From Clostridia bacterium (lineage in GTDB: Bacteria; Bacillota; Clostridia; Oscillospirales; CAG-272): a stretch of 64,000 nucleotides of DNA. Below the pieces are notes generated by a model. It was not told where the DNA came from. It ran no database searches and was given only the letters and a program-made list of their open reading frames with translations. Of the stretch, positions 42,402 through 52,527 are shown one piece after another (positions within the stretch are counted from its first letter, which is position 1; the number at the start of each line of letters is the position of its first letter). The stretch is taken from positions 425-64,424 of the forward strand of contig JAFTRY010000013.1 of assembly GCA_017462035.1 (NCBI GenBank), in the 5' to 3' direction. The position numbers and the translations under genes were made by a program.

Positions 42402-42502
42402 AAAAGAAGAGAACAGCCTCTGTTCTGTCCGTATCATTGACAACGGTACAAGATTATGGTATAATGGAGAGAGAACGAATTGACTTTGAAGGAGGCGGCG
42501 GA

Positions 42503-43771
42503 ATGAGTTCGATTCATAGTATTTATCTTGCGTTGGATATTCTTGGTGCCATGATCACGTTGATTATTTTTCTCGGCTGTATGGGAGATACCCGAGAAAA
42601 AGATACCCATGACGGAGCCTTTATCGGATATTTGATTCTTTTGCTTTTAGTGTTGATTTCGGACGGGCTTTGTCACGCTTTGGACGGGAACGAGAGTCTT
42701 AGGCTTCTCACTTATCTTGCTAACACCGTTAGCGATTGTGCCGAATATGTGCTTTTCGTGTTTTTTATGCGCTATCTCGCTCAGCGCCTGTATCAGCGGC
42801 GACGGGAGATTTCTCATCTTATCTGGGTGCTTGGCGTGCTTTGCGCTTTGTCTGTGGCAATGTCTATTGCCAACCTTTGGTGCGAATTTCATTTTACCGT
42901 GGACGGCGGCGGAGCTTACGTTCGAGGCGCATATCCTTGGGTTTCCCGTATTTTTCCGCTCCTTTGTCTGTTTACGGCAGCTGTGACCATTGCGATCAAT
43001 CCGAGCTTGAGTGGAAAAGACCGCGCGATCTTTTTCTGTTATCCGCTATTTCCGTTGACGGGTCTGTTACTGGATTATTTCGTGCTGGGAGCATCGTGTG
43101 TGTATATCGGTGTCTTGATCAGTACGGTGATCATGTACACCAACACTTATTCTAAAAAAAGGAGAATGATCGTAGAGCAAAGGACCGCGTTGATGGTGTC
43201 ACAGATCAATCCGCATTTCATGTATAATACATTAACCACCATTGCGTCGCTTTGCGAGCTGGATCCTCCGCGGGCAAAACAAATTACCCTGGAGTTCTCC
43301 TCGTTTTTAAGACAAAATTTAAACACTCTTACTACCAATCAGCTCATTCCTTTTGAGCAGGAATTGCACCACGTAGACTGTTATTTGAAAATTGAAAAGG
43401 CACGTTTTGGAGATAAGATCAATGCGGTGTATGACATTCAAACGGAAAATTTTTCTATTCCCGCCTTAACGATTCAGCCACTGGTTGAAAATGCGGTGCG
43501 ATACGGTCTTTCTGCCAAAGCAGAGGGCGGTACAATCAAATTGTCTTCCTATTCTACGGAGGATTCGTATATTGTGGAGGTCAAGGATGACGGTGTTGGA
43601 TTTGATATGGAGGAGGCTGTCTTTGACGGAAAAAAACACGTGGGAATCGCAAACGTGCGCACGAGACTTATGGATATGTGCGGCGGTAGCTTAACCGTCA
43701 AGAGTATGGTAGGTATCGGAACCAGGGTGGTAGCGGAGATTCCTTGCAAAAAGAAAGGAAGGGGCAAATGA
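42503..43771 (+). CDS. Sensor histidine kinase, LytS/YehU type (His_kinase plus HATPase)
   Basis: Six-TM sensor, SQINPHFMYNTL, LTIQPLVENAVRYG, DDGVGF. Confidence 0.85.
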   Translation: MSSIHSIYLALDILGAMITLIIFLGCMGDTREKDTHDGAFIGYLILLLLVLISDGLCHALDGNESLRLLTYLANTVSDCAEYVLFVFFMRYLAQRLYQRRREISHLIWVLGVLCALSVAMSIANLWCEFHFTVDGGGAYVRGAYPWVSRIFPLLCLFTAAVTIAINPSLSGKDRAIFFCYPLFPLTGLLLDYFVLGASCVYIGVLISTVIMYTNTYSKKRRMIVEQRTALMVSQINPHFMYNTLTTIASLCELDPPRAKQITLEFSSFLRQNLNTLTTNQLIPFEQELHHVDCYLKIEKARFGDKINAVYDIQTENFSIPALTIQPLVENAVRYGLSAKAEGGTIKLSSYSTEDSYIVEVKDDGVGFDMEEAVFDGKKHVGIANVRTRLMDMCGGSLTVKSMVGIGTRVVAEIPCKKKGRGK

Positions 43772-44574
43772 ACATTTTAGCGGTAGACGATGAGATTCAC
43801 GCTCTGAGCATGCTGGAGGATGCTATATCCGAGGCGGTGACGAATGCCCGCATCTACCTGTGTCAAGACGTACAGGTTGCCTTAGAGACGGCGAAGCTGG
43901 TAAAAATCGATATTTGTTTTTTGGATATCCATATGCCTAAGAAGAGCGGTATTGAGCTGGCGGCGGAGCTGAAGCTACTAAACCCGGAAATCAATATTGT
44001 CTTCGCCACAGCGTTTTCGGAGCATATGAAGGAGGGAATTGATCTTCGGATGAGCGGGTATCTGCTCAAGCCTGTTACGGCTCAGGCGGTGAAGGTGGAG
44101 CTGGAAAACCTCCGCCATCCCGTGGAGTGGGACGAGAGCAAGAAATTACGGGTATTGACCTTTGGTAATTTTGAGGTCCTCATCGACGGTGTTCCCGTTA
44201 AATTTGAAAGAAAACAGGCAAAAGAGATTTTAGCTTATCTGATCGACAAACGGGGAACGTCGGTGACCTACGCTGAGTTGGCATCCGTTTTGTGGGAGGA
44301 TGGCGCGTATGATCGTACTCAGCAGAAGAATTTACAGGTGTATGTGGCATCTCTGGTAAAAACTCTGAATACTCTCGGAGCCAAAAAAGTCATTCGTAAA
44401 AACCGTACCTCCATTATGGTGGACACCTCCCAGGTGGATTGTGATTTTTATCGCTTTTTGGAGGGAGACGTTCGAGTCATCAATTCCTTTACAGGACAGT
44501 ACATGAGCTCGTACTCCTGGGCGGAATTTACTACGGGGTACCTGGATGCTCAAATACAAAAATTAAATTTGTAA
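43768..44574 (+). CDS. Response regulator: receiver plus SARP/OmpR-like winged-helix output
   Basis: MNILAVDDE...FLDIHMP receiver. C-terminal LRVLTFGNFEVLIDGVPVKFERKQAKEILAYL...LASVLWED. ATGA overlap with the kinase gene. Confidence 0.8.
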   Translation: MNILAVDDEIHALSMLEDAISEAVTNARIYLCQDVQVALETAKLVKIDICFLDIHMPKKSGIELAAELKLLNPEINIVFATAFSEHMKEGIDLRMSGYLLKPVTAQAVKVELENLRHPVEWDESKKLRVLTFGNFEVLIDGVPVKFERKQAKEILAYLIDKRGTSVTYAELASVLWEDGAYDRTQQKNLQVYVASLVKTLNTLGAKKVIRKNRTSIMVDTSQVDCDFYRFLEGDVRVINSFTGQYMSSYSWAEFTTGYLDAQIQKLNL

Positions 44575-44595
44575 ACGAAGCAAGAAGAACCAAAT

Positions 44596-44640
44596 AAAAA
44601 ATCACCTGCTATCGCACACGGGATAGCAGGTGATTTTTGT
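44596..44640. terminator. Bidirectional terminator between the two-component system and the fibre operon
   Basis: AAAAATCACCTGCTATC / GATAGCAGGTGATTTTT. Confidence 0.8.
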
Positions 44641-44715
44641 TGTAAATCCGGTCAACCAAAGAAAATTGGGTCGGGCTTGCGTTACTTCTTTGAGAGCCGG
44701 GGAGGGAAGAGCCTT

Positions 44716-45858
44716 TTATTCCTCCGGTAAGCTTTGGATAATACTGTTGAGGGTTATATTGGTTCGATTGCCGTTTTCGTCCAGCTGTCTCCACGTATCC
44801 GGATCGAAGGAATCGTGAGCGTAGGTACTTCCCAACAAATAACCAATTGCTTGCGCGCTGCCATGGTACATGTCCCCGACCTGATACCATTCGCTTCCGT
44901 TCGCGTCTTTGGTGTATACCACGGCATAAACCTCTACGTATGAGCCGCCGGAAACAGCGGTAAGGTCGTCAGCGGTCATAAAAAGGATCATCTCGTTTCC
45001 GTTTACGGTTGTGGTTGTCGGATTAAACCAACCGCTTTGATAAGAATAGCTGTCTCCGGTGGTTTCGTCACCGTCTACGTTGCTTCTTTGAATGACCACG
45101 GTAACCGGTTTGTTCTCACCGTCGATATTCAGTTCCAGCGCCACGCCAAACAAATTCTCAACTGTCTCAACGTCGTTATTCAATCCCAAAAAGCCAACCA
45201 CGTTGCCGATGTAATCGGGATGCAGTGTGTTAGCGTCCAGAGCATCGGTAAGCTGTTGGTAATCCTCCGGTGTATTCAGGATCTCAGGGAATCTTGCCAA
45301 TACGCCGGAAACCGCCGCCACGTCACTGCTTTCGGGCTGCTCTAATCCAAATTGATACTCAATGGTGGAGGTTAGTGTCAAGTCGGAGGTGTCCGCTCCC
45401 TCAGCAAAGGTTGCGGTAACTGTTATGATCCTTTTCTCGTCCGGAGCGATTTCCTCTCCCAGCTGAATATCCGCTTCCATTTGTATGTTGGGATTGGAGT
45501 ATGCCACGATCTCTCCTGATTCATCCGTGTAGGTTCCCCGGACCATAGCCAGATAATAGTAGGGAACCGACGTATTATTCCATACCTCGATTTGGTATAC
45601 CGCTTTCATGACACCGTCTGTTCCTTCTTCTAACGTGACCTTGCTGGTCAATATCGTGTCGGAGAAGAGCAGAGTCTCCTGATCCAACTCGCCAACAGCC
45701 CCCTGCGTTACACCCGTAATAAATATCTCTTTGGGCGGTGTGGCAGAGGCGTAGCCCTGAATGGAAACGTCGGTGGTGACCTGTGCGTATCCCACGAGCA
45801 TGAAACAACACATCAAGGAGAGCGTGATGCTTAAGGCAATCTTAATTCCTGTTTTCAT
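44716..45858 (-). CDS. Secreted protein (380 aa) with a SipW-substrate-like N-terminal module
   Basis: Signal sequence MKTGIKIALSITLSLMCCFMLVGYA followed by QVTTDVSIQGYASATP, shared with the 183-aa protein. GGAAGGAG RBS. Confidence 0.65.
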   Translation of the reverse strand: MKTGIKIALSITLSLMCCFMLVGYAQVTTDVSIQGYASATPPKEIFITGVTQGAVGELDQETLLFSDTILTSKVTLEEGTDGVMKAVYQIEVWNNTSVPYYYLAMVRGTYTDESGEIVAYSNPNIQMEADIQLGEEIAPDEKRIITVTATFAEGADTSDLTLTSTIEYQFGLEQPESSDVAAVSGVLARFPEILNTPEDYQQLTDALDANTLHPDYIGNVVGFLGLNNDVETVENLFGVALELNIDGENKPVTVVIQRSNVDGDETTGDSYSYQSGWFNPTTTTVNGNEMILFMTADDLTAVSGGSYVEVYAVVYTKDANGSEWYQVGDMYHGSAQAIGYLLGSTYAHDSFDPDTWRQLDENGNRTNITLNSIIQSLPEE

Positions 45859-45899
45859 GCTTCCCGCTCTCCTTCCTTTTTGTTTTTCTTAAATGAAAA

Positions 45900-47651
45900 T
45901 CAGTTGTCCTTTGTTTCTTTCTGGTTTTGGTCATCCTCGGTATTGATCATGGCGGTAAATACCTGTTCCGCTTTGCGTCTTACCACGCCGATGATCTTTT
46001 TGAGGGGGTGATTCAATGTGTCGGGATCTACCTTGTAATTGCCCTTAGCTACCTCCGCCTCGCGGATCACGTCTTTATCGCTTGACACGTCTCTGGTTGG
46101 AACCAAAACGACGTCGCCTGCCTCAACGGCTTCACCGTCCGGATCGTAGCGGTAGGTCTTATTGTCGTTGTTTCTCTCGGGCCAAAATACGTCGATCACG
46201 TCAATCCCGGTTTCCTCAACCGTCTCGCCAATGACCTCTTCCACAGCCGCGGTGATCTCGGGCTCCAGAATCGGCTCGGGAGTGATCTCTGCTACGGCTT
46301 GGGGCTCGGTCTCGGCGGCAATTTCCGTCTCAACCTCTGGGGCTGTCTCCGGGGGGATCTCCTCCTCCGTTTCCAACGTCGGTTCGGTCTCTGCCTCCGG
46401 TTTGGGAGTGGGCTCAACGGCGGGCTCGACGCTCGGTGAGGACTCAGCTTTCGCTTCGGATTTCAGCGCGACTACCACGACCTTCACCTCGGGCTTTCCT
46501 TCTGCTTTTTCATCCTTCTTTTCATCCCTCACCACGCTTGGCTGCTCCGCCGGGGGGGGAGGTGTTGGCGTGGAATCAACAAATCCCGGAATTTTGATCT
46601 CGTAGAGATACAACAGCTTGTTGTCCGTAGGAATGATGAACTTCGTGCAGGTCTTATCCTCGTTTTCATACATCAAAATGGGTGCCTGGATGGTGTCGCG
46701 AATCTCCAACATCTCCTCAAAGGTATCCACCCACACGGTCTGATAACAGGATACGTCAAAGAGATTGTGAATCTTTTGAATATAGGATTTGTACTGCGAC
46801 AGAATTTTCTTGATACGGGCGGTATAGGTAATATCCTCCGTTCTGGTCAGATAGATAAACGCCACGAGGAAGAGAACAAGGAGCAGATCGACAATGCCCA
46901 GAACGATGGCGGTGGTCTTGAATACCTCACTGCCTACGCCTCTGGTACAAGCGATCATCTTGGTTTCGCCCTGAGGAACACTGGAGGTCATGTTGATATT
47001 GACCGTCTTGGTGGTCAGGGGGATTCTCAGCTCGGATACGTAGCTATCGGAGCTTCCGCCGGTAAAGGCGTTGCAATCACTGATCACATCCACCTTAAAG
47101 GTCACCACGATATTGCTGGTGGTTTGATCCAGGGAATACGCTGCCAGGAATTTATTTGCCAGATCGTTGTACTGGTCATAGTCAAGAACCGCGATCTCGC
47201 TAATCTGCAAGCTACTGTTGCTCGCCTGGGATACGTTGGTCTGTGACTTAATTTCCTGAGCATGGTTGAAAATCGCGGCACCGGAGGTATTGTCAGTAAT
47301 TTCCAGATTGGCTGTGATGCTATAGGAATAACGGTAATAAACATCCTCGGCGTTCATATCCAGCTTGTAATTGAAGGTCGTTATGATATGATCGACCAGA
47401 GAGGCGACGTAGGATTGATCCTTTTCGAGATAAGGCTTCTCGTAGAACTCGTTGTCCTTCAGATATACCTTATAATCGATATTTCCGCTATCCGTATAGT
47501 CAATATAATAGGTCTTGTTGAGCTGATACGCGACCAATGACGAGATCAGAACAGCTAAGGTAAGAACCACGACCAGAATAGACTGTGTGAAGATCCATTT
47601 TTCACGGTGCTTTCGGTAAGAGAACCTTTTTTTCTTTTCGGCTTCTGACAT
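45900..47651 (-). CDS. Bitopic/two-TM protein with extracytoplasmic domain, Pro/Glu-rich linker and small C-terminal domain
   Basis: TM at about 25-45 and 250-272. PE-rich low-complexity region encoded at about 46230-46555. GGAGGGAG RBS. From memory only, it resembles DUF5305-type partners of SipW-like peptidases. Confidence 0.6.
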   Translation of the reverse strand: MSEAEKKKRFSYRKHREKWIFTQSILVVVLTLAVLISSLVAYQLNKTYYIDYTDSGNIDYKVYLKDNEFYEKPYLEKDQSYVASLVDHIITTFNYKLDMNAEDVYYRYSYSITANLEITDNTSGAAIFNHAQEIKSQTNVSQASNSSLQISEIAVLDYDQYNDLANKFLAAYSLDQTTSNIVVTFKVDVISDCNAFTGGSSDSYVSELRIPLTTKTVNINMTSSVPQGETKMIACTRGVGSEVFKTTAIVLGIVDLLLVLFLVAFIYLTRTEDITYTARIKKILSQYKSYIQKIHNLFDVSCYQTVWVDTFEEMLEIRDTIQAPILMYENEDKTCTKFIIPTDNKLLYLYEIKIPGFVDSTPTPPPPAEQPSVVRDEKKDEKAEGKPEVKVVVVALKSEAKAESSPSVEPAVEPTPKPEAETEPTLETEEEIPPETAPEVETEIAAETEPQAVAEITPEPILEPEITAAVEEVIGETVEETGIDVIDVFWPERNNDNKTYRYDPDGEAVEAGDVVLVPTRDVSSDKDVIREAEVAKGNYKVDPDTLNHPLKKIIGVVRRKAEQVFTAMINTEDDQNQKETKDN

Positions 47652-47665
47652 ATATCTCCCTCCTT

Positions 47666-48796
47666 TCATTTATTTTGTTCAATGGCTTCTCTCAGCCAAA
47701 GGGTAGGGTGTCCTACATAAGCCACTTTGAAGCAGACCGTTCCAACGATCTGTCCGGCTTCAATGTAGCCCATGTCCATTGTCTCATTGGCATCGCCCTT
47801 GGTGTAATACCGTGTGGTTCCGCCGATCTGCGTAATTTGAACTACTCGATGGACGATTTTGGCGTCGCCCTTGGAAAATACGATGACTTGACCCTCTTGG
47901 ATCGCGGAGCCGTCGTATCGCTCATAAATAATGACGTCGCCTTTGTTGATCTCACCTGTCATGCTCTCGGTGGCGATCACCAGAGTGCCAAACCGGAACT
48001 GACAGGAAATAAGCATTACGATTGAAATCATAACAAGGACAGCGGCAACTATACTAATGCCGTTTGCTGCCTTTTTCGCTTTTGTGTGTACCCGTTTCCG
48101 TTTCCTCTCAAAAAGGGCGGCAACCAGTCCCCAGACGGCAAGGGGAGTCAAGAGCCTTATGGCTGCCATCAGCGCGTCGGGGATCGCCGGTGTGGTGGGG
48201 AGCAGGTAAACGTAAAGCGTTGTAATCGATCTGTATACAATGTTGGGAATTTTTCCGTACCGTTTGGAAATGAAATGGTACAGAAGATTGGCGGTGATCG
48301 CCGGGAAGAAAAACAAACCGACCAGATCCATAAATTGATTGAAGCTCTTTAGCCCTTGCAGGTTCGAGCAGATCAGGAGCTCGGCGACAACAGAGGCGAG
48401 ATAGCTCGTTATCTCCGCAAGCTTGTTTTTCTGCGCCAGCAAAACGCTTCTTATGATTTCGATCGTAATGATTATGATCGAGATCGGTAAAATATACTTT
48501 GCGAGGGACGAGAGGGACAGGGGATAGACGGAGTTGTAATAGCCAAACCATATACCGCTTATTTGGATCAGAATGGCGTACAGTGCCGCGATGACCCCCA
48601 TCAACAACGTGACCTCTTTTTTGCTGACTGCGTGGGAAACTCTCTTTCTGACCAAGAAACAGGTCAGGAGGGTCAGCGGAAGCAGCAGGATGGCAGTAAA
48701 GATCCTGCCGCTTCCCACATCCACAAAGAGAGACAGAAGGAGGACCGCAAGGACGGTAATGGAAACCGCATACAGAATTTTTTTATCTCTATTCAT
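47666..48796 (-). CDS. Signal peptidase I of the archaeal/SipW (S26B) type fused to an N-terminal ~230-aa polytopic membrane domain
   Basis: The C-terminal ~140 aa carry the catalytic-type motifs TESMTGEI (Ser), KIVHRVV (His) and TKGDANETMD. Seven to eight TM helices precede them. AAAGGAGG RBS. Confidence 0.8.
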   Translation of the reverse strand: MNRDKKILYAVSITVLAVLLLSLFVDVGSGRIFTAILLLPLTLLTCFLVRKRVSHAVSKKEVTLLMGVIAALYAILIQISGIWFGYYNSVYPLSLSSLAKYILPISIIIITIEIIRSVLLAQKNKLAEITSYLASVVAELLICSNLQGLKSFNQFMDLVGLFFFPAITANLLYHFISKRYGKIPNIVYRSITTLYVYLLPTTPAIPDALMAAIRLLTPLAVWGLVAALFERKRKRVHTKAKKAANGISIVAAVLVMISIVMLISCQFRFGTLVIATESMTGEINKGDVIIYERYDGSAIQEGQVIVFSKGDAKIVHRVVQITQIGGTTRYYTKGDANETMDMGYIEAGQIVGTVCFKVAYVGHPTLWLREAIEQNK

Positions 48797-48844
48797 TTGC
48801 GATCCTCCTTTCCCGGGTTATTTTCTAAAGGGTTTCGTTAGCTG

Positions 48845-49396
48845 TTAGGTAGTACTTGCTGTCTGTGTTCCGGCAGACGCGTTGAAGGTGATGGTGAAGT
48901 CCTCGTTGATGGCATCAGCGGAAGGGGTGAGAAGCTCTACGGTTACCTCAAAGGTAACGGAGGGGGCATCAGAGGTCAAGGTCTTGGCGGCAGTTCCCCA
49001 GGTAGTTGTAATTTTGAATGCAGATCCCTGTGCCTGAGTGATTACAGGTACGGCAACTGTGACATCGTACTCATTATCAGAGGTAATGGTGTAAGTGGCG
49101 GTCAATTTGTCACCCGCCTTGCTCATTCCCGAAGCGGTCAGAGAGATCGTGATATCACCTGGTGTACCTACGCCAGAGGTGGTTTCGATCGTTCCCTTTC
49201 TGGCGGTATCCTCAGCTTCGCTACCCAAAACGGTAGCCTCCTTGATCGAAGCCGCAGAGAAGTATACGTCCAGGTTGTGGGGGGTGGATTTTGCTTTACC
49301 GGTGATACTAAGGTCTCGGGCCAGACCTGCGTAACCAACACCAAGGCAGAGTGCCGCGATCAGCAAAAATGCGATGATTGTTCTTCTTTTTTTCAT
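48845..49396 (-). CDS. Small secreted beta-rich protein (183 aa), candidate TasA-like fibre subunit
   Basis: MKKRRTIIAFLLIAALCLGVGYA followed by GLARDLSITGKAKSTP. The mature part is Thr/Ser/Val-rich. First gene of the operon, with AAAGGAG RBS. Confidence 0.65.
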   Translation of the reverse strand: MKKRRTIIAFLLIAALCLGVGYAGLARDLSITGKAKSTPHNLDVYFSAASIKEATVLGSEAEDTARKGTIETTSGVGTPGDITISLTASGMSKAGDKLTATYTITSDNEYDVTVAVPVITQAQGSAFKITTTWGTAAKTLTSDAPSVTFEVTVELLTPSADAINEDFTITFNASAGTQTASTT

Positions 49397-49469
49397 GTTT
49401 TTTTCTCCTTTGTAGAAAGTTTTATAATTAACTAAAGCCTTCGCTTTATTTAATTCAAAATCGATACGG

Positions 49470-49505
49470 ATGGCAATTTTGCCATTTTGTAAGTCCATTA
49501 TAACA
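49470..49505 (-). promoter_or_regulatory. Extended -10 promoter (TGtTATAAT) plus 16-bp perfect palindrome ATGGCAATTTTGCCAT in the leader of the fibre operon
   Basis: Minus strand: TGTTATAAT at 49497-49505, palindrome at 49470-49485, about 75 nt upstream of the start codon. Confidence 0.5.
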
Positions 49506-49622
49506 GTGTATGACTACAACAGGACTACATAATCGGTGTTTTTATAAAAAAATACTGAAAAAAGGAAAAAAAGGGAAAGTTTTTGACCGGTTTCATGGAT
49601 TTAATAGTTAATAAAGTACAGC

Positions 49623-49664: not shown

Positions 49665-50687
49665 TTATTTTGTGTTTTTTACTCTTTGAATCATAAAGTT
49701 TACGTCATCACAAGCATTGATAATATTTAGTATAGCGTCAGGATTGTTTTTCTTCCATACAACGAACAATTCATGGCAGAATGCCTGACCAACTTCCTCA
49801 ACGCCCGAAAAATCCAAGGTTATTTCTTTGAAATCGGAAACAAGTTCTCCGAGACGTCTTGCCTCGGAGCGCGAAATAGGATTGCCGTAAGCAAACATAT
49901 GTGATATTGGAATATGAGTACGAATAAAGCCTTTTTCAATATCAGAGAATCTATCAAATACTTCCTTGGTCGTTTTCTTTGTTTGGTTGTTTAATGACAT
50001 TGATACAAGTGTGCTTTTAATACTTCCGGATATTTTCACAGTAGCGTCGTTGAAATTATCTCTGGAGAAGAAGATGTTGTCAGAAAGAATAAAGAATTCA
50101 TCCATTAAATGGGAGGTGAAGAAGATACCTTCTCCGGAATGACAGCTTTCTGCTGTTGTGAATTTCCCGGCAAACAAAAGAGAAACACATTCGTCAAGAG
50201 TAAGCTCCTCGTTTTTTTCTTCCTTGAAAAACATTTGAATGTTTTTGAAAATACCAATTCCATTATCGGCTATTACTATTCGTGTTTCCAACGGATTGCT
50301 TGAAAAGGCTACCATTATTTGAGATGCCTTGGAATGCTCTATTGCATTGTTCATCATTTCTGTAAACGCATATTGCCAAGCTGAAAACACATTTTTTTCA
50401 TAGCCTTTCAGTAAAGGTTGAATATCGGTGCGGAAAATTTTATCTTCTCCAAGTGAACCGTTGTTATTATAATGAAACTTGTGAATGACAGTAACTATTT
50501 TATATGGCGGGACAGCTTTTTCAACTTTTTTGAGAATTTTTTCTTCGCACATCTTTTTGACATAGTTATAAACAGTTGACTTTGAAACACCAAAATATTC
50601 AACGGTTTTATGTGCAAAATCCTTATCTTTGGCATCAATAAGCTTTAGAATGTATTGCTTGATTTGATGCGCGTTTATGTTTGACAT
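49665..50687 (-). CDS. Fused winged-HTH, GHKL (HATPase_c) ATPase and STAS-like (DUF4325-type) protein
   Basis: N-terminal HTH FGVSKSTVYNYVKKM. N-box MMNNAIEHS, G1 box DNGIGI, G2-like GEGIF. C-terminal ITLDFSGVEEVGQAFCHELF. Confidence 0.7.
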   Translation of the reverse strand: MSNINAHQIKQYILKLIDAKDKDFAHKTVEYFGVSKSTVYNYVKKMCEEKILKKVEKAVPPYKIVTVIHKFHYNNNGSLGEDKIFRTDIQPLLKGYEKNVFSAWQYAFTEMMNNAIEHSKASQIMVAFSSNPLETRIVIADNGIGIFKNIQMFFKEEKNEELTLDECVSLLFAGKFTTAESCHSGEGIFFTSHLMDEFFILSDNIFFSRDNFNDATVKISGSIKSTLVSMSLNNQTKKTTKEVFDRFSDIEKGFIRTHIPISHMFAYGNPISRSEARRLGELVSDFKEITLDFSGVEEVGQAFCHELFVVWKKNNPDAILNIINACDDVNFMIQRVKNTK

Positions 50688-50716
50688 AAAGAATACCTCC
50701 TTTTATAGTCAACACC

Positions 50717-50744
50717 ATTATAACATATTTTCCAAAAAAGTCAA
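50717..50744 (-). promoter_or_regulatory. Promoter of the HTH-GHKL-STAS gene
   Basis: Minus strand reads TTGACT, 16-nt spacer, TGtTATAAT, then AGGAGG RBS. Confidence 0.6.
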
Positions 50745-50956
50745 CAATTATTCCAAATAATCAAAAAAACATTCCAATATTACCCATAAGATGTGACGAT
50801 TTTTGATGTTCACTACGGCAAATATTTATAGCCATATCGATAGTGCGAGTAAAAAGGAGACGCGCAAGCGATTGGAGAGTTGCTGGGGTGAGTATAAACA
50901 GAGAAGGGCTACCGTGGGGTAGCCCTTTGACATCAGTCACTTGGGGTGAGATATCA

Positions 50957-52081
50957 TTATCCTTTTGAATAACTAACTTTAGTATAGAGAAAAGTACCGC
51001 GGGGTACGCCCGAAATATTACTTTCGTCGATGATGAGCCAAATGCTGTCAAGTCCGAATTCAAGTCTTCCCGAAATCTCTTCGGCATCAAATGTTGCTAT
51101 ATTTCCGTTAAGTGTGGCTTTGACAGACACCTTGTGATGATATGGTGAAGATAAAGTATCATACAAATCAATCGATACAGTACGGTCGGTAAGGTTTGAT
51201 ATGGACAAGGTGTTTTCGTTGTAAAAACTGTTCCAATCCCATGAGTAAATATCAGGCAGATATAAATTCAGCTCTCCGAACAACCGTATAAAATCAAATT
51301 GTGCATTAGTCTTTGTTATGATACCAGCGTCATAACCGGATACCCACCCGTGCGTTAGCTCCGACCATTGGGATTTTGGTATGCGTATTTTTTCTCCGTT
51401 TGTGATATCGTAACACTCATCGTGATTATAATAGTTATAGCGTACGTACAGATATTTTTCGTCCAGTACCAAATTATCGTATTCGTTCAATGAATATATC
51501 TGTGTATAAAGATTGGATGATTCAAAGAGTTCGGTATAAAATCTTCCTTTTTCATCAATTCGACAGTAGTAATTTCTTTCGTAATTGTCAAGCAGTAATT
51601 TTGGTTGGTTTTCTTCCATTGAAAAAACAGCAATAATATCGTACAGATCGGTGAGAAGTATAAGTTCCTCGCTTCCGTTTTGGTTTAAATCTGTTATGGT
51701 ATAGCCGAAATAATTTCTTCCATCTTCCTGATATTTGTATGCATATTCATCAAGATAAAATCTGTATCCCGAAATGAACAGTTTTTTATATAGCTCTTTT
51801 GTTTCTTCCTCGAGAATAGCATCAATGCCGTCGCATTTATTTGAAAGCATTTTCTCCTCGGTATAGGAAGGATAAAGATTCACAATCTGCTTGCACATAG
51901 TGATAATATCATCATAGCTTAAAACATCATCGGTGGATACAGAGTTTTTCATAATGTTTTCCGTAGATCCAACTGTATTTTCAGGTGTTGTATTTATGTC
52001 ATTTTGCGTTGCATCACAAGCGGTAAGGGCGGATAAAAGTAATGTGAAGAGCAGCAATAAACACAAGAATTTTTTTCTCAT
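50957..52081 (-). CDS. Lipoprotein (374 aa), function unknown
   Basis: Lipobox LSALTAC. Tyr/Asn/Asp-rich mature protein. GGAGGA RBS. Confidence 0.65.
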   Translation of the reverse strand: MRKKFLCLLLLFTLLLSALTACDATQNDINTTPENTVGSTENIMKNSVSTDDVLSYDDIITMCKQIVNLYPSYTEEKMLSNKCDGIDAILEEETKELYKKLFISGYRFYLDEYAYKYQEDGRNYFGYTITDLNQNGSEELILLTDLYDIIAVFSMEENQPKLLLDNYERNYYCRIDEKGRFYTELFESSNLYTQIYSLNEYDNLVLDEKYLYVRYNYYNHDECYDITNGEKIRIPKSQWSELTHGWVSGYDAGIITKTNAQFDFIRLFGELNLYLPDIYSWDWNSFYNENTLSISNLTDRTVSIDLYDTLSSPYHHKVSVKATLNGNIATFDAEEISGRLEFGLDSIWLIIDESNISGVPRGTFLYTKVSYSKG

Positions 52082-52160
52082 ATATCCTCCATTTTTTTTT
52101 TATATCCAAATACAATATATCAAACAGTTAAAATTATTTTCGAACGATTGCTACGTATTC

Positions 52161-52169
52161 ATTATATCA
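52161..52169 (-). promoter_or_regulatory. Extended -10 element (TGaTATAAT) upstream of the lipoprotein gene
   Basis: Read on the minus strand, about 80 nt upstream of ATG 52081. Confidence 0.4.
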
Positions 52170-52393
52170 CAAGAGCAGAAATAATACAAGCAATTTTTTA
52201 ATGACGGTTTTATTTTGGGGGAGGGAGCGTGCGATTTAGGAAAGTCCGCACAAGAGAGGGATTCGTTCTTGAATTTTGCAAAGCATTTCGGATTGGATTT
52301 AAGGTTATGCTTTGCAAAATTCTTCGGTCACCGTTCCAAAACAACTCACCGGGTTGTTTTGTTTACTGCGTTCGAATCCCTGTTTATATTCTC

Positions 52394-52430
52394 GCAAAAA
52401 ACAAGAAGCACCCTCTGTTGAGGATGCTTC
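52394..52430 (-). terminator. Terminator after tRNA-Ser
   Basis: GAAGCATCCT / AGGGTGCTTC stem (one mismatch) followed by TTGTTTTTT on the minus strand. Confidence 0.7.
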
Positions 52431-52438
52431 TCGCTTTT

Positions 52439-52527
52439 TGGCGGAGAGAGAGGGATTCGAACCCTCGTGTGCTTGCGCACAAACTGATTTCGAGTCAGCC
52501 CCGTTATGACCACTTCGATATCTCTCC
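52439..52527 (-). tRNA. tRNA-Ser (anticodon CGA), CCA encoded
   Basis: 89-nt class II tRNA: GGAGAGA acceptor, anticodon arm GCTGA-CTCGAAA-TCAGT, long variable arm, T arm GAGGGTTCGAATCCCTC. Confidence 0.92.

What the first reader, a model, noticed from the sequence alone, without database searches (positions are those of the whole stretch)
44716..49505. Four-gene SipW-type signal peptidase operon: candidate TasA-like fibre or matrix assembly system
This is a minus-strand operon with a strong RBS on every gene and short gaps. The gene order is:
- a 183-aa secreted beta-rich protein;
- an S26B (archaeal/SipW-type) signal peptidase;
- a two-TM protein with a large outside domain and a cytoplasmic PE-rich tail;
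- a 380-aa secreted protein.

The bidirectional terminator is at 44596-44640. The logic parallels B. subtilis tapA-sipW-tasA, which pairs a dedicated peptidase with a fibre subunit and an accessory protein. Here the accessory proteins and the peptidase architecture are different, and to my knowledge uncharacterised. It could encode a novel extracellular filament.
Basis: partly seen in the sequence, partly recalled or inferred. Interest (0 to 1): 0.72.

Follow-up and report, generated by a model that had tools for sequence, protein, structure and literature searches.

The report
Dedicated-peptidase putative surface fibre operon
An uncultured gut Clostridia bacterium carries a conserved gene cassette that most likely builds an extracellular protein fibre; it has its own signal peptidase, a helper membrane protein, two related secreted subunits and a two-component switch, like recently described archaeal pili but with unannotated subunits.

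Summary
Four minus-strand genes (g1 183 aa, g2 376 aa, g3 583 aa, g4 380 aa) have strong ribosome-binding sites, gaps of 14-48 nt and a shared bidirectional terminator.

- **g2** is an archaeal/ER-type (S26B) signal peptidase with Ser278/His316/Asp335 intact, fused to about eight extra membrane helices.
- **g3** is a DUF5305 protein.
- **g1 and the N-terminal domain of g4** are paralogous Ig-like beta-sandwiches. They share a very conserved G-Y-A cleavage motif followed by an amphipathic strand.

The order g1-g2-g3-g4 recurs in at least 15 independent gut-metagenome loci. It usually sits next to a LytS-type kinase and response regulator, and a TGTAGTC-N4-TGTAGTC repeat replaces the -35 element of the promoter.

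DUF5305 paired with an S26B peptidase is the processing module of archaeal Tafi pili and of AbpX loci (2025-26 papers), which polymerise by donor-strand complementation. The fibre reading is therefore plausible (about 0.6), but polymerisation was not tested here.

It is not a TasA-family system: no TasA HMM hit, hhalign probability 4-24%, Foldseek E 0.09. I class it as a new variant of a known kind, with moderate interest.

The parts
42503..43771 (+). Sensor histidine kinase of the module (LytS/YehU-type, about 6 TM, 422 aa from the ATG at 42503; the ORF opens at a TTG at 42437)
   Evidence: Pfam His_kinase PF06580 80.3 bits and HATPase_c 45.8 bits. TM segments from hydropathy. Homologues are 41-48% identical and lie next to the operon in L002, L003, L006, L007 and L010-L012. 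The start is inferred from homologue lengths of 421-432 aa and a GGAGG-rich sequence before M23.
43768..44574 (+). Response regulator (REC domain plus winged-helix output, 268 aa). Its start overlaps the kinase stop (ATGA).
   Evidence: Response_reg 62.9 bits. Trans_reg_C 24.4 bits, which is below the 26.2 cutoff. It is 65-71% identical in the other loci, the most conserved gene of the module. The same 4-nt overlap of kinase and regulator is seen in L002.
44597..44638 (.). Bidirectional intrinsic terminator shared by the regulator gene and the four-gene operon
   Evidence: 17-bp perfect inverted repeat with an 8-nt loop, flanked by A/T runs on both sides.
44716..45858 (-). g4: secreted two-domain protein (380 aa). 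Signal peptide, G-Y-A motif, g1-like beta-sandwich (about 45-171) and a C-terminal alpha/beta domain (178-375). Candidate minor or tip subunit.
   Evidence: hhalign of the g1 family against the g4 family: probability 97.1%, E 6.4e-11, g1 1-159 aligned to g4 1-155. AF2 model with pLDDT 82.6 and two domains. 50 homologues, none with a Pfam domain. Always the last gene of the cassette.
45900..47651 (-). g3: DUF5305 membrane protein (583 aa). N-in TM 24-42, extracellular domain, TM 248-266, cytoplasmic alpha/beta region, Pro/Glu-rich linker 360-480 and a C-terminal domain 480-583. Candidate peptidase accessory or assembly subunit.
   Evidence: PF17231 35.9 bits against a cutoff of 29. Topology and composition. 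56-67% identical across loci. The accessory role is taken from TafG and the AbpX-locus literature.
47666..48796 (-). g2: polytopic S26B signal peptidase I (376 aa). About 8 extra TM helices (1-230), anchor TM 245-266 and an extracellular catalytic domain with Ser278, His316 and Asp335.
   Evidence: TIGR02228 84 bits against a cutoff of 51.85; Peptidase_S26 29.1 bits. Alignment to SEC11A/C keeps the SM, VHRV and KGDxN boxes. These residues are invariant in 31 homologues, as are the N-domain polar residues E113, R116, Q122, N153, N170, Y173, S177, R189 and D207. TM count.
48845..49396 (-). g1: small secreted Ig-like beta-sandwich protein (183 aa; predicted mature form 160 aa after Ala23). Candidate major subunit.
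   Evidence: Signal peptide and motif M-K-K-R-R..L-G-I-G-Y-A | A-L-T-D-x-L-x-I-x-G-x-A. G21 is 100% conserved, A23 99%, L29 96% and G33 93% in 147 relatives. AF2 model with pLDDT 71.8, all-beta. The best Foldseek hits are self-complemented FimA/CfaB pilins. It is the first gene after the regulated promoter in every locus.
49397..49490 (-). Conserved 5' untranslated leader of about 100 nt, with hairpins
   Evidence: Alignment of 8 loci. The box-to-ATG distance is a constant 92-122 nt. No Rfam match. Function not established.
49497..49505 (-). Extended -10 promoter element (TGTTATAAT)
   Evidence: TGnTAnAAT is conserved at the same position in all aligned loci.
49512..49529 (-). Direct repeat TGTAGTC-N4-TGTAGTC (11-bp period) in place of a -35 element. 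Candidate binding site of the response regulator.
   Evidence: Invariant in every locus that has the two-component system, with four tandem copies in L015. Absent from L013/L014, which lack the two-component system. It is the single match in the window even with 2 mismatches allowed. A motif-only scan of metagenomes gave 7 hits, 6 of them 92-104 nt upstream of a g1-like gene.

Best explanation
The cassette is a two-component-regulated system that secretes and assembles an extracellular protein polymer (pilus or matrix fibre) by donor-strand complementation. It is a Gram-positive counterpart of the archaeal Tafi and AbpX-type loci.

**Proposed steps**
1. The LytS-type kinase phosphorylates the regulator. 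The regulator binds the two TGTAGTC heptamers that replace the -35 element and switches on g1-g2-g3-g4. (Inferred from the conserved cis-element.)
2. g1 and g4 are exported by Sec. They stay tethered by unusually conserved signal peptides. (Inferred.)
3. The polytopic S26B peptidase g2, working with the DUF5305 protein g3, cleaves after G-Y-A. (The peptidase and its intact catalytic triad are shown. The cleavage site and the partnership with g3 are inferred from the motif and from TafD/TafG.)
4. The newly exposed amphipathic N-terminal strand (x-L-x-x-x-L-x-I-x-G-x-A) inserts into the Ig-like sandwich of the next subunit. This gives a g1 homopolymer. (Inferred, not tested.)
5. g4 is a g1 paralogue carrying an extra alpha/beta domain. 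It is incorporated as a tip, initiator or minor subunit, by analogy with the two-domain TafC. (Inferred.)
For: **Peptidase and accessory protein**
- The S26B peptidase has Ser/His/Asp intact.
- g3 scores above the DUF5305 threshold.
- In Haloarcula, deleting tafD (an S26 peptidase) abolishes TafA processing and the pili. tafG (DUF5305) co-occurs with it, and Thermococcales/Archaeoglobales clusters hold the peptidase, DUF5305, 150-200-aa Sec subunits, a ~300-aa two-domain tip protein and a regulator (PMC11821415). That is the same parts list as here.
- AbpX loci in archaea and Bacillota have a 10-TM SPase I, DUF5305, minor and tip subunits and often histidine kinases. g2 has about 9 predicted TM helices.

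**Subunits**
- g1 and the g4 N-domain are paralogues.
- The most conserved part of both families is the G-Y-A site plus the following alternating-hydrophobic strand with an invariant Gly.
- The post-signal segment has low confidence in both AF2 monomers. The same is reported for the AbpX donor strand.
- The best structural neighbours of g1 are self-complemented chaperone-usher pilins: Foldseek probability 0.99-1.0, E 1e-3 to 1e-2.

**Conservation of the cassette**
- The four-gene order holds even for the most remote g1 relative.
- It sits in many different flanking contexts.
- Extra g4 and g1-domain paralogues occur in some loci.

**Regulation**
- The regulator box co-occurs with the two-component system.
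- This parallels the BsaRS-dependent sipW-bsaA operon of C. perfringens (PMC7395162).
Against: - No polymer was modelled or observed.
- The g1 model is only moderately confident (pLDDT 71.8). No Foldseek hit reaches E <= 1e-3, and TasA ranks 33rd with E 0.09.
- There is no sequence link to TasA, and no hit at E<=0.1 to Pfam families Peptidase_M73 (TasA/camelysin) or DUF1102, nor to any NCBIfam TasA-type model at E<=10. g1 also gave no hit to any solved chain, which may or may not include AbpX. TafE and AbpA could not be compared directly.
- g1's weak Pfam hits are to generic Ig-like surface domains (DUF7507, DUF11, CARDB, ASH, fn3_5). These also occur in non-polymeric proteins.
- The conserved N-terminal strand could be conserved only as a peptidase recognition site.
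- The window has no cell-wall anchor, sortase or terminator subunit.
- The role of DUF5305 has not been shown experimentally in any system.
Confidence: 0.6

Rival explanations
1. The cassette is a dedicated secretion and processing module for non-polymerising surface or secreted proteins. On this reading g1 and g4 are Ig-like binding or adhesion proteins, or g4 is an enzyme. They need a specialised signal peptidase complex because of their atypical, conserved signal peptides, but they do not form a fibre.
For: - g1-family members give only weak hits to generic Ig-like surface domains such as DUF7507, DUF11, CARDB, fn3_5 and ASH.
- A 2421-aa protein carries 19 copies of the g1 core domain. The domain therefore also works as an ordinary repeat.
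- Foldseek evidence for a pilin fold is weak.
- There is no anchor or terminator subunit in the window.
Against: - Dedicated S26B peptidase gene clusters whose function has been tested experimentally (tasA, bsaA, Tafi) make donor-strand polymers; AbpX, shown to form such fibrils, is only postulated to be processed by its adjacent S26B peptidase.
- Two paralogues that have diverged strongly elsewhere keep the same post-cleavage amphipathic strand with an invariant Gly. This is more than a -3/-1 cleavage site needs.
- The pattern of one major small subunit plus a two-domain paralogue matches pilus loci.
Confidence: 0.25
2. The N-terminal hydrophobic segments of g1 and g4 are not cleaved. The proteins would be membrane-tethered Ig-like ectodomains that act with the adjacent kinase in envelope sensing. 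The peptidase would then serve another substrate, or regulate them by shedding.
For: - The h-regions are unusually conserved for signal peptides.
- The kinase has only a membrane-embedded sensor region.
- Linkage to the two-component system is conserved even after the operon was inverted in this genome.
Against: - G at -3 (100%) and A at -1 (99%) form a canonical SPase I site next to a catalytically intact dedicated peptidase.
- L013/L014 keep the four genes without any two-component system.
- The regulator box sits upstream of g1, so the four genes are the output of the system rather than its input.
Confidence: 0.07
3. The operon is a true member of the TasA/TapA-SipW (or BsaA/CalY) family, that is, an orthologue of the Bacillus and Clostridium biofilm-matrix operon.
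For: - It has a dedicated S26B peptidase.
- The cleavage region G-Y-A|A-L-T-D resembles TasA's T-W-A|A-F-N-D.
- A local motif L..GDK.T.T.TI.N aligns to TasA NLKPGDKLTKDFQFEN.
Against: - No Peptidase_M73/TasA, CalY, BsaA or TIGR04088 hit for g1 or for 23 to 107 relatives.
- The profile search against PDB sequences, which include TasA 8AUR, finds nothing.
- hhalign probability is 23.6% with 23 sequences and falls to 3.7% with 107.
- Foldseek against the TasA fibre gives E 0.09 and TM 0.28.
- The SipW equivalog model scores 45 bits against a cutoff of 190.
- There is no TapA, and DUF5305 is absent from the Bacillus operon.
Confidence: 0.03

Closest known systems
Archaeal Tafi / taf-like clusters (TafD S26 peptidase + TafG DUF5305 + TafA/E pilins + two-domain TafC; PMC11821415, PMC12337348)
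   Same: - A dedicated S26-type signal peptidase sits next to a DUF5305 protein.
- There are small (150-200 aa) secreted beta-sandwich subunits, a larger two-domain secreted protein and a linked transcription regulator.
- Sec-type signals are used in the Thermococcales and Archaeoglobales versions.
   Different: - Bacterial host (gut Clostridia).
- No hit at E<=0.1 to Pfam DUF1102, the family of the Sec-type taf-like subunits; TafA/TafE themselves could not be compared.
- The extra TM helices of the peptidase are N-terminal (about 9 TM). TafD instead has 4 TM plus a C-terminal Ig domain.
- The regulator is a two-component system, not an Lrp-like TafB.
- There is no TafF-type terminator or anchor.
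AbpX-type loci in archaea and Bacillota/Chloroflexota (bioRxiv 10.64898/2026.01.04.697558)
   Same: [quoted passage not shown]
- Major, minor and tip subunits.
- Bacterial loci are often linked to histidine kinases.
- Mature subunits are acidic (g1 pI 4.4, g4 pI 4.05).
   Different: - AbpX clusters close to TasA by BLAST, whereas g1 has no detectable similarity to TasA.
[quoted passage not shown] The g1 family consensus is Leu2/Asp4, and the window copy has Leu2/Arg4.
- There is no SLH or LPXTG anchor in the window.
B. subtilis tapA-sipW-tasA and C. perfringens sipW-bsaABCRSD
   Same: - A dedicated S26B peptidase is co-transcribed with its secreted substrates.
- In C. perfringens a two-component system (BsaRS) is required for expression, and subunits polymerise by N-terminal strand donation.
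   Different: - The subunits here are not in the TasA/BsaA family.
- The peptidase is polytopic, whereas SipW has only two TM helices (one N-terminal, one C-terminal).
- DUF5305 is present and TapA is absent.
- No conserved Asn/Lys/Glu isopeptide triad is evident in g1.
Chaperone-usher pilins (FimA, CfaB, FimG)
   Same: - The predicted g1 fold is closest to self-complemented FimA/CfaB.
- The N-terminal extension has alternating hydrophobic residues and a conserved Gly. This recalls the conserved P4 Gly of chaperone-usher donor strands (from my own knowledge).
   Different: There is no chaperone, usher or outer membrane. The similarity is weak (TM 0.33-0.46, about 10% identity) and is probably convergent or very remote.
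SARP-type activator sites (heptamer direct repeats with an 11-bp period, about 8 bp upstream of the -10 element; from my own knowledge of Streptomyces SARPs)
   Same: Two to four TGTAGTC heptamers with 4-bp spacers lie 9 nt upstream of an extended -10 element, with no -35 element.
   Different: The regulator here is a REC-domain response regulator with only a sub-threshold Trans_reg_C match. Binding has not been tested.

Membership tests
Signal peptidase I, archaeal/ER type (MEROPS S26B; TIGR02228) | HMM score above the curated cutoff | tested here: met
   TIGR02228 84 bits against a cutoff of 51.85. Peptidase_S26 PF10502 29.1 bits against 22.9.
Signal peptidase I, archaeal/ER type (MEROPS S26B; TIGR02228) | Catalytic Ser (SM box), His (VHR box) and Asp (GDxN box) | tested here: met
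   Ser278, His316 and Asp335 align to the SEC11A/C boxes. They are invariant in 31 homologues.
SipW (Bacillus equivalog NF046067) | Equivalog HMM above cutoff | tested here: not met
   45.3 bits against a cutoff of 190. g2 is 376 aa with about 9 TM helices; SipW is short, about 190 aa with two TM helices (from my own knowledge).
DUF5305 (PF17231; TafG-like SPase accessory) | Pfam HMM above the gathering score | tested here: met
   35.9 bits against 29, covering residues 140-346.
DUF5305 (PF17231; TafG-like SPase accessory) | Topology: TM, extracellular beta domain, TM, cytoplasmic domain; encoded next to an S26 peptidase | tested here: met
   TM 24-42 and TM 248-266, with a positively charged N-terminus and a long C-terminal part. 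It is adjacent to g2 in all loci. The fold itself was not modelled.
TasA / camelysin / BsaA family (Peptidase_M73; TasA superfamily core) | Sequence-profile membership | tested here: not met
   No hit in Pfam or NCBIfam for g1 or for 23 and 107 relatives. The profile search against PDB sequences finds nothing. hhalign against TasA gives probability 23.6% and 3.7%.
TasA / camelysin / BsaA family (Peptidase_M73; TasA superfamily core) | Jelly-roll fold similar to the TasA fibre subunit | tested here: inconclusive
   Foldseek against 8AUR gives E 0.09, TM 0.28, rank 33. The model has pLDDT of only 71.8.
SipW-cognate signal peptide class (TIGR04088) | HMM match to the N-terminus | tested here: not met
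   No TIGR04088 hit at E<=10 in 23 members. By eye, G-Y-A|A-L-T-D resembles TasA T-W-A|A-F-N-D.
AbpX family / AbpX-type locus | Locus holds a polytopic (about 10-TM) SPase I, DUF5305 and major/minor/tip subunits | tested here: met
   About 9 predicted TM helices in g2, DUF5305 in g3, and g1 plus the paralogous two-domain g4.
AbpX family / AbpX-type locus | [quoted passage not shown] | tested here: inconclusive
   The family consensus is A-L-T-D (Leu2; Asp4 in 52%). The window copy is G-L-A-R. pI is 4.44 for g1 and 4.05 for g4. No AbpX sequence was available, and no hit to any PDB chain was found.
Donor-strand-complementation polymers (general) | The N-terminal strand of one subunit completes the fold of the next; filaments are observed | not testable with these tools
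   Only monomer AF2 was available. The post-signal segment has low pLDDT in both models. This needs multimer modelling, EM or biochemistry.
Tat-dependent Tafi (haloarchaeal) | Twin-arginine Tat signal on the pilins | tested here: inconclusive
   g1 has MKKRRT (R4 81%, R5 63%), a minimal RRx-hydrophobic-hydrophobic pattern. Its h-region is strongly hydrophobic (Kyte-Doolittle 2.46) and g4 has no RR. Sec export is more likely.
OmpR/SARP-like activator-dependent promoter | Direct heptamer repeats with an 11-bp period abutting the -10 element, conserved together with the regulator | tested here: met
   Binding by the regulator was not tested, and its winged-helix match is sub-threshold.

The most novel reading that the evidence does not exclude
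g1 and g4 define a large, unannotated family of Gram-positive donor-strand pilins with an Ig-like fold that resembles chaperone-usher pilins. The profile search finds 7,803 clusters at 50% identity, although that count includes generic Ig-repeat matches. On this reading they are made by uncultured gut Clostridia without a chaperone, usher, sortase or TasA-type subunit. The eight-helix domain fused to the signal peptidase has invariant intramembrane residues Glu113, Arg116, Asn170, Tyr173 and near-invariant His174. It would not be a passive anchor but the assembly machine: it would hold the conserved signal-peptide helices and couple cleavage to strand insertion, with DUF5305 linking the process to the cytoplasm.
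Probability: 0.25. Interest if true: 0.75.

Novelty: new variant of a known kind. Interest (0 to 1): 0.55.

Why it matters
If the cassette makes a fibre, uncultured Oscillospiraceae-like Clostridia of animal guts would have a regulated, sortase-independent surface filament for adhesion or biofilm formation. Its subunits belong to a family with no Pfam, NCBIfam or structural annotation.

It would extend the 'S26B peptidase + DUF5305' assembly module, so far shown only in archaea, into a new bacterial subunit family. That makes the role of DUF5305 and of the polytopic peptidase domain testable in a simple four-gene system.

The invariant TGTAGTC box and its cognate two-component system also give a ready genetic handle for switching the operon on.

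Tried and rejected
- **TasA homology.** I recalled the TasA sequence from memory and checked it against 8AUR. hhalign against the g1 family gave probability 23.6%, falling to 3.7% with a deeper alignment. Rejected.
- **HMM and PDB-sequence searches.** Searches with g1, g4, g3 and the family profiles found nothing beyond SEC11 for g2.
- **Foldseek on g4.** No convincing whole-chain match. The top hits are AP-2 appendage, WSSV VP28 and FimG, all at low TM.
- **Separate Pfam scans** of the g2 N-domain, the g3 C-terminal domain and the g4 C-domain found nothing.
- **Genome-collection scan.** The full g4 alignment failed because it has no stretch conserved enough. Repeating with closer sequences gave only 5 loci, all MAGs.
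- **Flanking inverted repeats.** I looked for repeats that could explain why the operon is inverted relative to the two-component system in this genome. None were found.
- **Leader RNA.** RNAalifold on the 5' leader gave no consensus structure on the automatic alignment. There is no Rfam hit.
- **CPBP/Rce1-like protease idea for the g2 N-domain** (E-x-x-R and Y-H motifs). There is no Pfam support, so I dropped it.
- **BsaA-like isopeptide triad.** g1 has a conserved Asn106 but no conserved Lys, so this is not supported.

Full report
**1. What is in the sequence**

Four minus-strand ORFs are present as described.
- g1: 48845-49396, 183 aa.
- g2: 47666-48796, 376 aa.
- g3: 45900-47651, 583 aa.
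- g4: 44716-45858, 380 aa.

Each is preceded by a strong Shine-Dalgarno sequence. The gaps are 48, 14 and 41 nt. A perfect 17-bp hairpin at 44597-44638, flanked by A/T runs, terminates both this operon and the convergent regulator gene.

Two boundaries need correction. The longer 217-aa reading of g1 starts at an ATG inside the conserved -10 box, so it is not real. g3 starts at MSEAEKKK, as in its homologues.

The source is an uncultured 'Clostridia bacterium' MAG, with locus tags IJY47_03405 for g4 and IJY47_03420 for g1.

**2. The four proteins**

*g2, the peptidase.*
- It scores 84 bits on the archaeal-type signal peptidase I model TIGR02228 (cutoff 51.85). It scores only 45 of the 190 bits required by the Bacillus SipW equivalog.
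- Its C-terminal 130 residues align to human SEC11A/C with the catalytic boxes intact: E-S278-M, V-H316-R-V and K-G-D335-A-N. These residues are invariant in 31 homologues.
- Hydropathy and the positive-inside rule give about nine TM helices. Eight precede the usual anchor helix.
- This extra domain has no Pfam match. It does carry invariant polar residues within or beside its predicted membrane helices: E113, R116, Q122, N153, N170, Y173, S177, R189 and D207.

*g3, the DUF5305 protein.*
- It passes the DUF5305 threshold with 35.9 bits against 29.
- Its layout is N-in TM (24-42), a ~200-residue outside domain, a second TM (248-266), and then a cytoplasmic region with a Pro/Glu-rich linker and a small C-terminal domain.

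*g1 and g4, the secreted proteins.*
- Neither matches any Pfam or NCBIfam family above threshold.
- The AF2 model of g1 is an all-beta sandwich with pLDDT 71.8.
- The AF2 model of g4 has pLDDT 82.6, with a beta-sandwich at 45-171 and an alpha/beta domain at 178-375.
- Profile-profile comparison shows that g1 and the N-terminal half of g4 are homologous: probability 97.1%, E 6e-11, 145 aligned columns.

**3. The shared N-terminal signature**

The best-conserved part of both families is the N-terminus, not the folded domain.
- g1 family: M-K-K-R-R-T-x-I-I-x-x-L-L-I-A-A-L-x-L-G-I-G-Y-A | A-L-T-D-x-L-x-I-x-G-x-A.
- g4 family: a different h-region, then V-G-Y-A | x-x-S-x-x-L-x-I-x-G-x-A.
- In 147 g1 relatives, G21 is 100% conserved, A23 99%, L29 96% and G33 93%.

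G at -3 and A at -1 make a canonical type-I cleavage site. What follows is an amphipathic beta-strand pattern with an invariant Gly. In both AF2 monomers this segment has low confidence. The AbpX authors report the same for a donor strand that becomes ordered only in the polymer.

**4. Conservation of the cassette**

- The order g1-g2-g3-g4 recurs in every locus long enough to show it: L002-L007, L010-L012, L015-L020 and L022. Partial versions occur in L001, L008 and L009.
- The flanking genes differ between loci.
- The most remote g1 homologue I could look up (E 5.6e-5) still sits in the same four-gene unit, next to an SLH-domain protein.
- The peptidase family has 1,705 clusters at E <= 1e-3. 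The best 120 are all 373-384 aa.
- A profile of g1 finds 7,803 cluster representatives at 50% identity, of which 219 have E <= 1e-30.
- The species-representative genome scan returned only five loci. All are MAGs of Clostridia, Eubacteriales or Oscillospiraceae from animal guts.
- Some loci carry extra g4-type paralogues.

**5.

In most loci a LytS-type histidine kinase and a response regulator lie directly upstream on the same strand. In the window the same pair, at 42503-43771 and 43768-44574, is convergent with the operon. The linkage therefore survived an inversion.

Aligning the regions upstream of g1 from eight loci shows an invariant direct repeat TGTAGTC-N4-TGTAGTC with an 11-bp period. 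It lies 9 nt upstream of an extended -10 element (TGnTAnAAT), and there is no -35 element. In the window the repeat is at 49512-49529 and the -10 element at 49497-49505.

- L015 has four tandem heptamers.
- L013 and L014, which have no two-component system, lack the box.
- A blind scan of a metagenome collection with the DNA motif alone gave seven hits. Six lie 92-104 nt upstream of a g1-like gene, followed by g2 and g3. The seventh looks like a chance match.

This is the layout expected for an activator that replaces the -35 contact. To my knowledge it is typical of OmpR/SARP-type winged-helix proteins. The regulator's winged-helix match is only sub-threshold, and binding is inferred.

**6. 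Comparison with known systems**

A full-text search for DUF5305 found four records, covering three studies.
- In Haloarcula hispanica, tafD (an S26 peptidase) is required for processing of the pilin TafA and for the Tat-fimbriae. tafG (DUF5305) always accompanies it.
- Taf-like clusters in Thermococcales and Archaeoglobales hold the peptidase, DUF5305, two or three 150-200-aa Sec-type subunits, a ~300-aa two-domain tip protein and a regulator (PMC11821415).
- The Natrinema Tafi pilus was solved and assembles by strand donation (PMC12337348).
- A 2026 preprint on AbpX reports loci in archaea and in Bacillota/Chloroflexota. They contain a ten-TM SPase I, a DUF5305 'accessory subunit' and minor and tip subunits. 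In bacteria they often also contain histidine kinases.

The window's cassette has the same parts list. The C. perfringens sipW-bsaABCRSD operon adds two precedents. It depends on a two-component system, and a model has been proposed in which subunits stay tethered by the signal peptide until strand exchange and SipW cleavage.

**7. What it is not**

g1 is not a TasA-family protein.
- No Peptidase_M73/TasA, CalY, BsaA, DUF1102 or TIGR04088 hit was found for g1 or for 23 to 107 relatives.
- The g1 profile finds no PDB chain.
- hhalign against a TasA sequence that I verified against 8AUR gives 23.6%, and 3.7% with the deeper alignment. Only a short 'L..GDK.T.T.TI.N' motif aligns.

Foldseek gave no hit at E <= 1e-3. 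The best neighbours are self-complemented FimA and CfaB pilins (E 1e-3 to 1e-2, probability 0.99-1.0, TM 0.33-0.46). The TasA fibre ranks 33rd with E 0.09.

Family members give scattered weak hits to Ig-like domains: DUF7507, DUF11, CARDB, ASH, fn3_5 and one BslA. The subunit therefore looks like an Ig-type sandwich from a family that no library names.

**8. Verdict**

The most likely reading (about 0.6) is a two-component-controlled donor-strand fibre.
- g1 would be the major subunit.
- g4 would be a tip or minor subunit.
- g2 and g3 would be the dedicated processing and possibly assembly complex.

*Shown:*
- gene structure;
- peptidase family and catalytic residues;
- DUF5305 membership;
- g1/g4 paralogy;
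- the conserved motif;
- cassette conservation;
- the cis-element.

*Inferred:*
- the cleavage site;
- the g2-g3 partnership;
- strand donation;
- the roles of g1 and g4;
- regulator binding.

The main rival (about 0.25) is that these are non-polymeric surface proteins with a private signal peptidase.

The kind of system was described in 2025-26, so this is not categorically new. The subunit family, the Gram-positive gut setting, the conserved two-component system and box, and the functional-looking polytopic peptidase domain make it a new variant worth an AF-Multimer run and an expression test.

Noticed in passing
window 48009-48037 and 48447-48475 (inside g2): A 29-nt inverted repeat, 26/29 complementary, has arms 409 nt apart within the peptidase gene. 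The arms encode TM4 (IIITIEIIRS, which holds invariant E113 and R116) and TM9 (LVMISIVMLI). Inverting the segment in silico puts four stop codons into g2. Nine homologous g2 genes lack any comparable repeat. It could be chance in Ile-rich codons, a long-range mRNA pairing, or an intragenic invertible OFF switch.
   Followed up: partly
window 49397-49490 (5' leader of g1), and the same region in L002, L003, L006, L007 and L010-L012: The leader of about 100 nt is conserved. It has a 5'-proximal AU-rich hairpin (CAAAGC...GCUUUUG). A second hairpin has a conserved loop UAGGGA(G/A), while its stem sequence differs between loci (GAGCG/CGCUC, GGGCU/AGCCC, GGACU/AGUCC). The window copy lacks the UAGGGA loop (AAAGC-GAAG-GCUUU instead). 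RNAalifold on the automatic alignment did not recover it, and there is no Rfam match. It may be an mRNA-stabilising or regulatory element.
   Followed up: partly
window 49376-49396 (g1 codons 1-7), and the g1 family: The n-region of g1 has a twin arginine (MKKRRT; R4 81% and R5 63% conserved), which fits a minimal Tat-like RRx-hydrophobic-hydrophobic pattern. The h-region is very hydrophobic and g4 has no RR, so Sec export seems more likely. This is of interest because the haloarchaeal counterparts are Tat substrates.
   Followed up: no
window 49665-52527: A low-GC stretch (0.36 at 50001-52000, against about 0.49 elsewhere) lies between the operon and tRNA-Ser(cga) at 52439-52527. It holds a gene for an HATPase_c_2 + DUF4325 (STAS-like) protein at 49665-50687 and a 374-aa lipoprotein-like gene with no Pfam match at 50957-52081. 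It may be an island inserted at the tRNA.
   Followed up: no
window 42437-49529 compared with L002, L003, L006, L007 and L010-L012: In the window the four-gene operon is inverted relative to the kinase-regulator pair (convergent, sharing one terminator). In the seven other loci where both two-component genes lie on the contig, all six genes run in the same direction. No flanking inverted repeats explain the rearrangement.
   Followed up: partly
L006 6972-7934; L008 2-1646; L010 1896-4044; L013 6508-7773: The cassette varies between loci.
- L006 has an extra 320-aa g4-type paralogue before g4.
- L008 has tandem g4 copies.
- L010 has four additional small secreted proteins upstream of the kinase.
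- L013 and L014 have a divergently transcribed Big_9 + SLH cell-wall-anchored protein and no two-component system.
- Many loci have a 495-aa form of g4 with a helical C-terminal extension.
   Followed up: partly
P0320 (from the representatives search): A 2421-aa protein contains 19 tandem matches to residues 81-160 of the g1 profile. The g1 core sandwich is therefore also used as a repeat in giant surface proteins.
   Followed up: no
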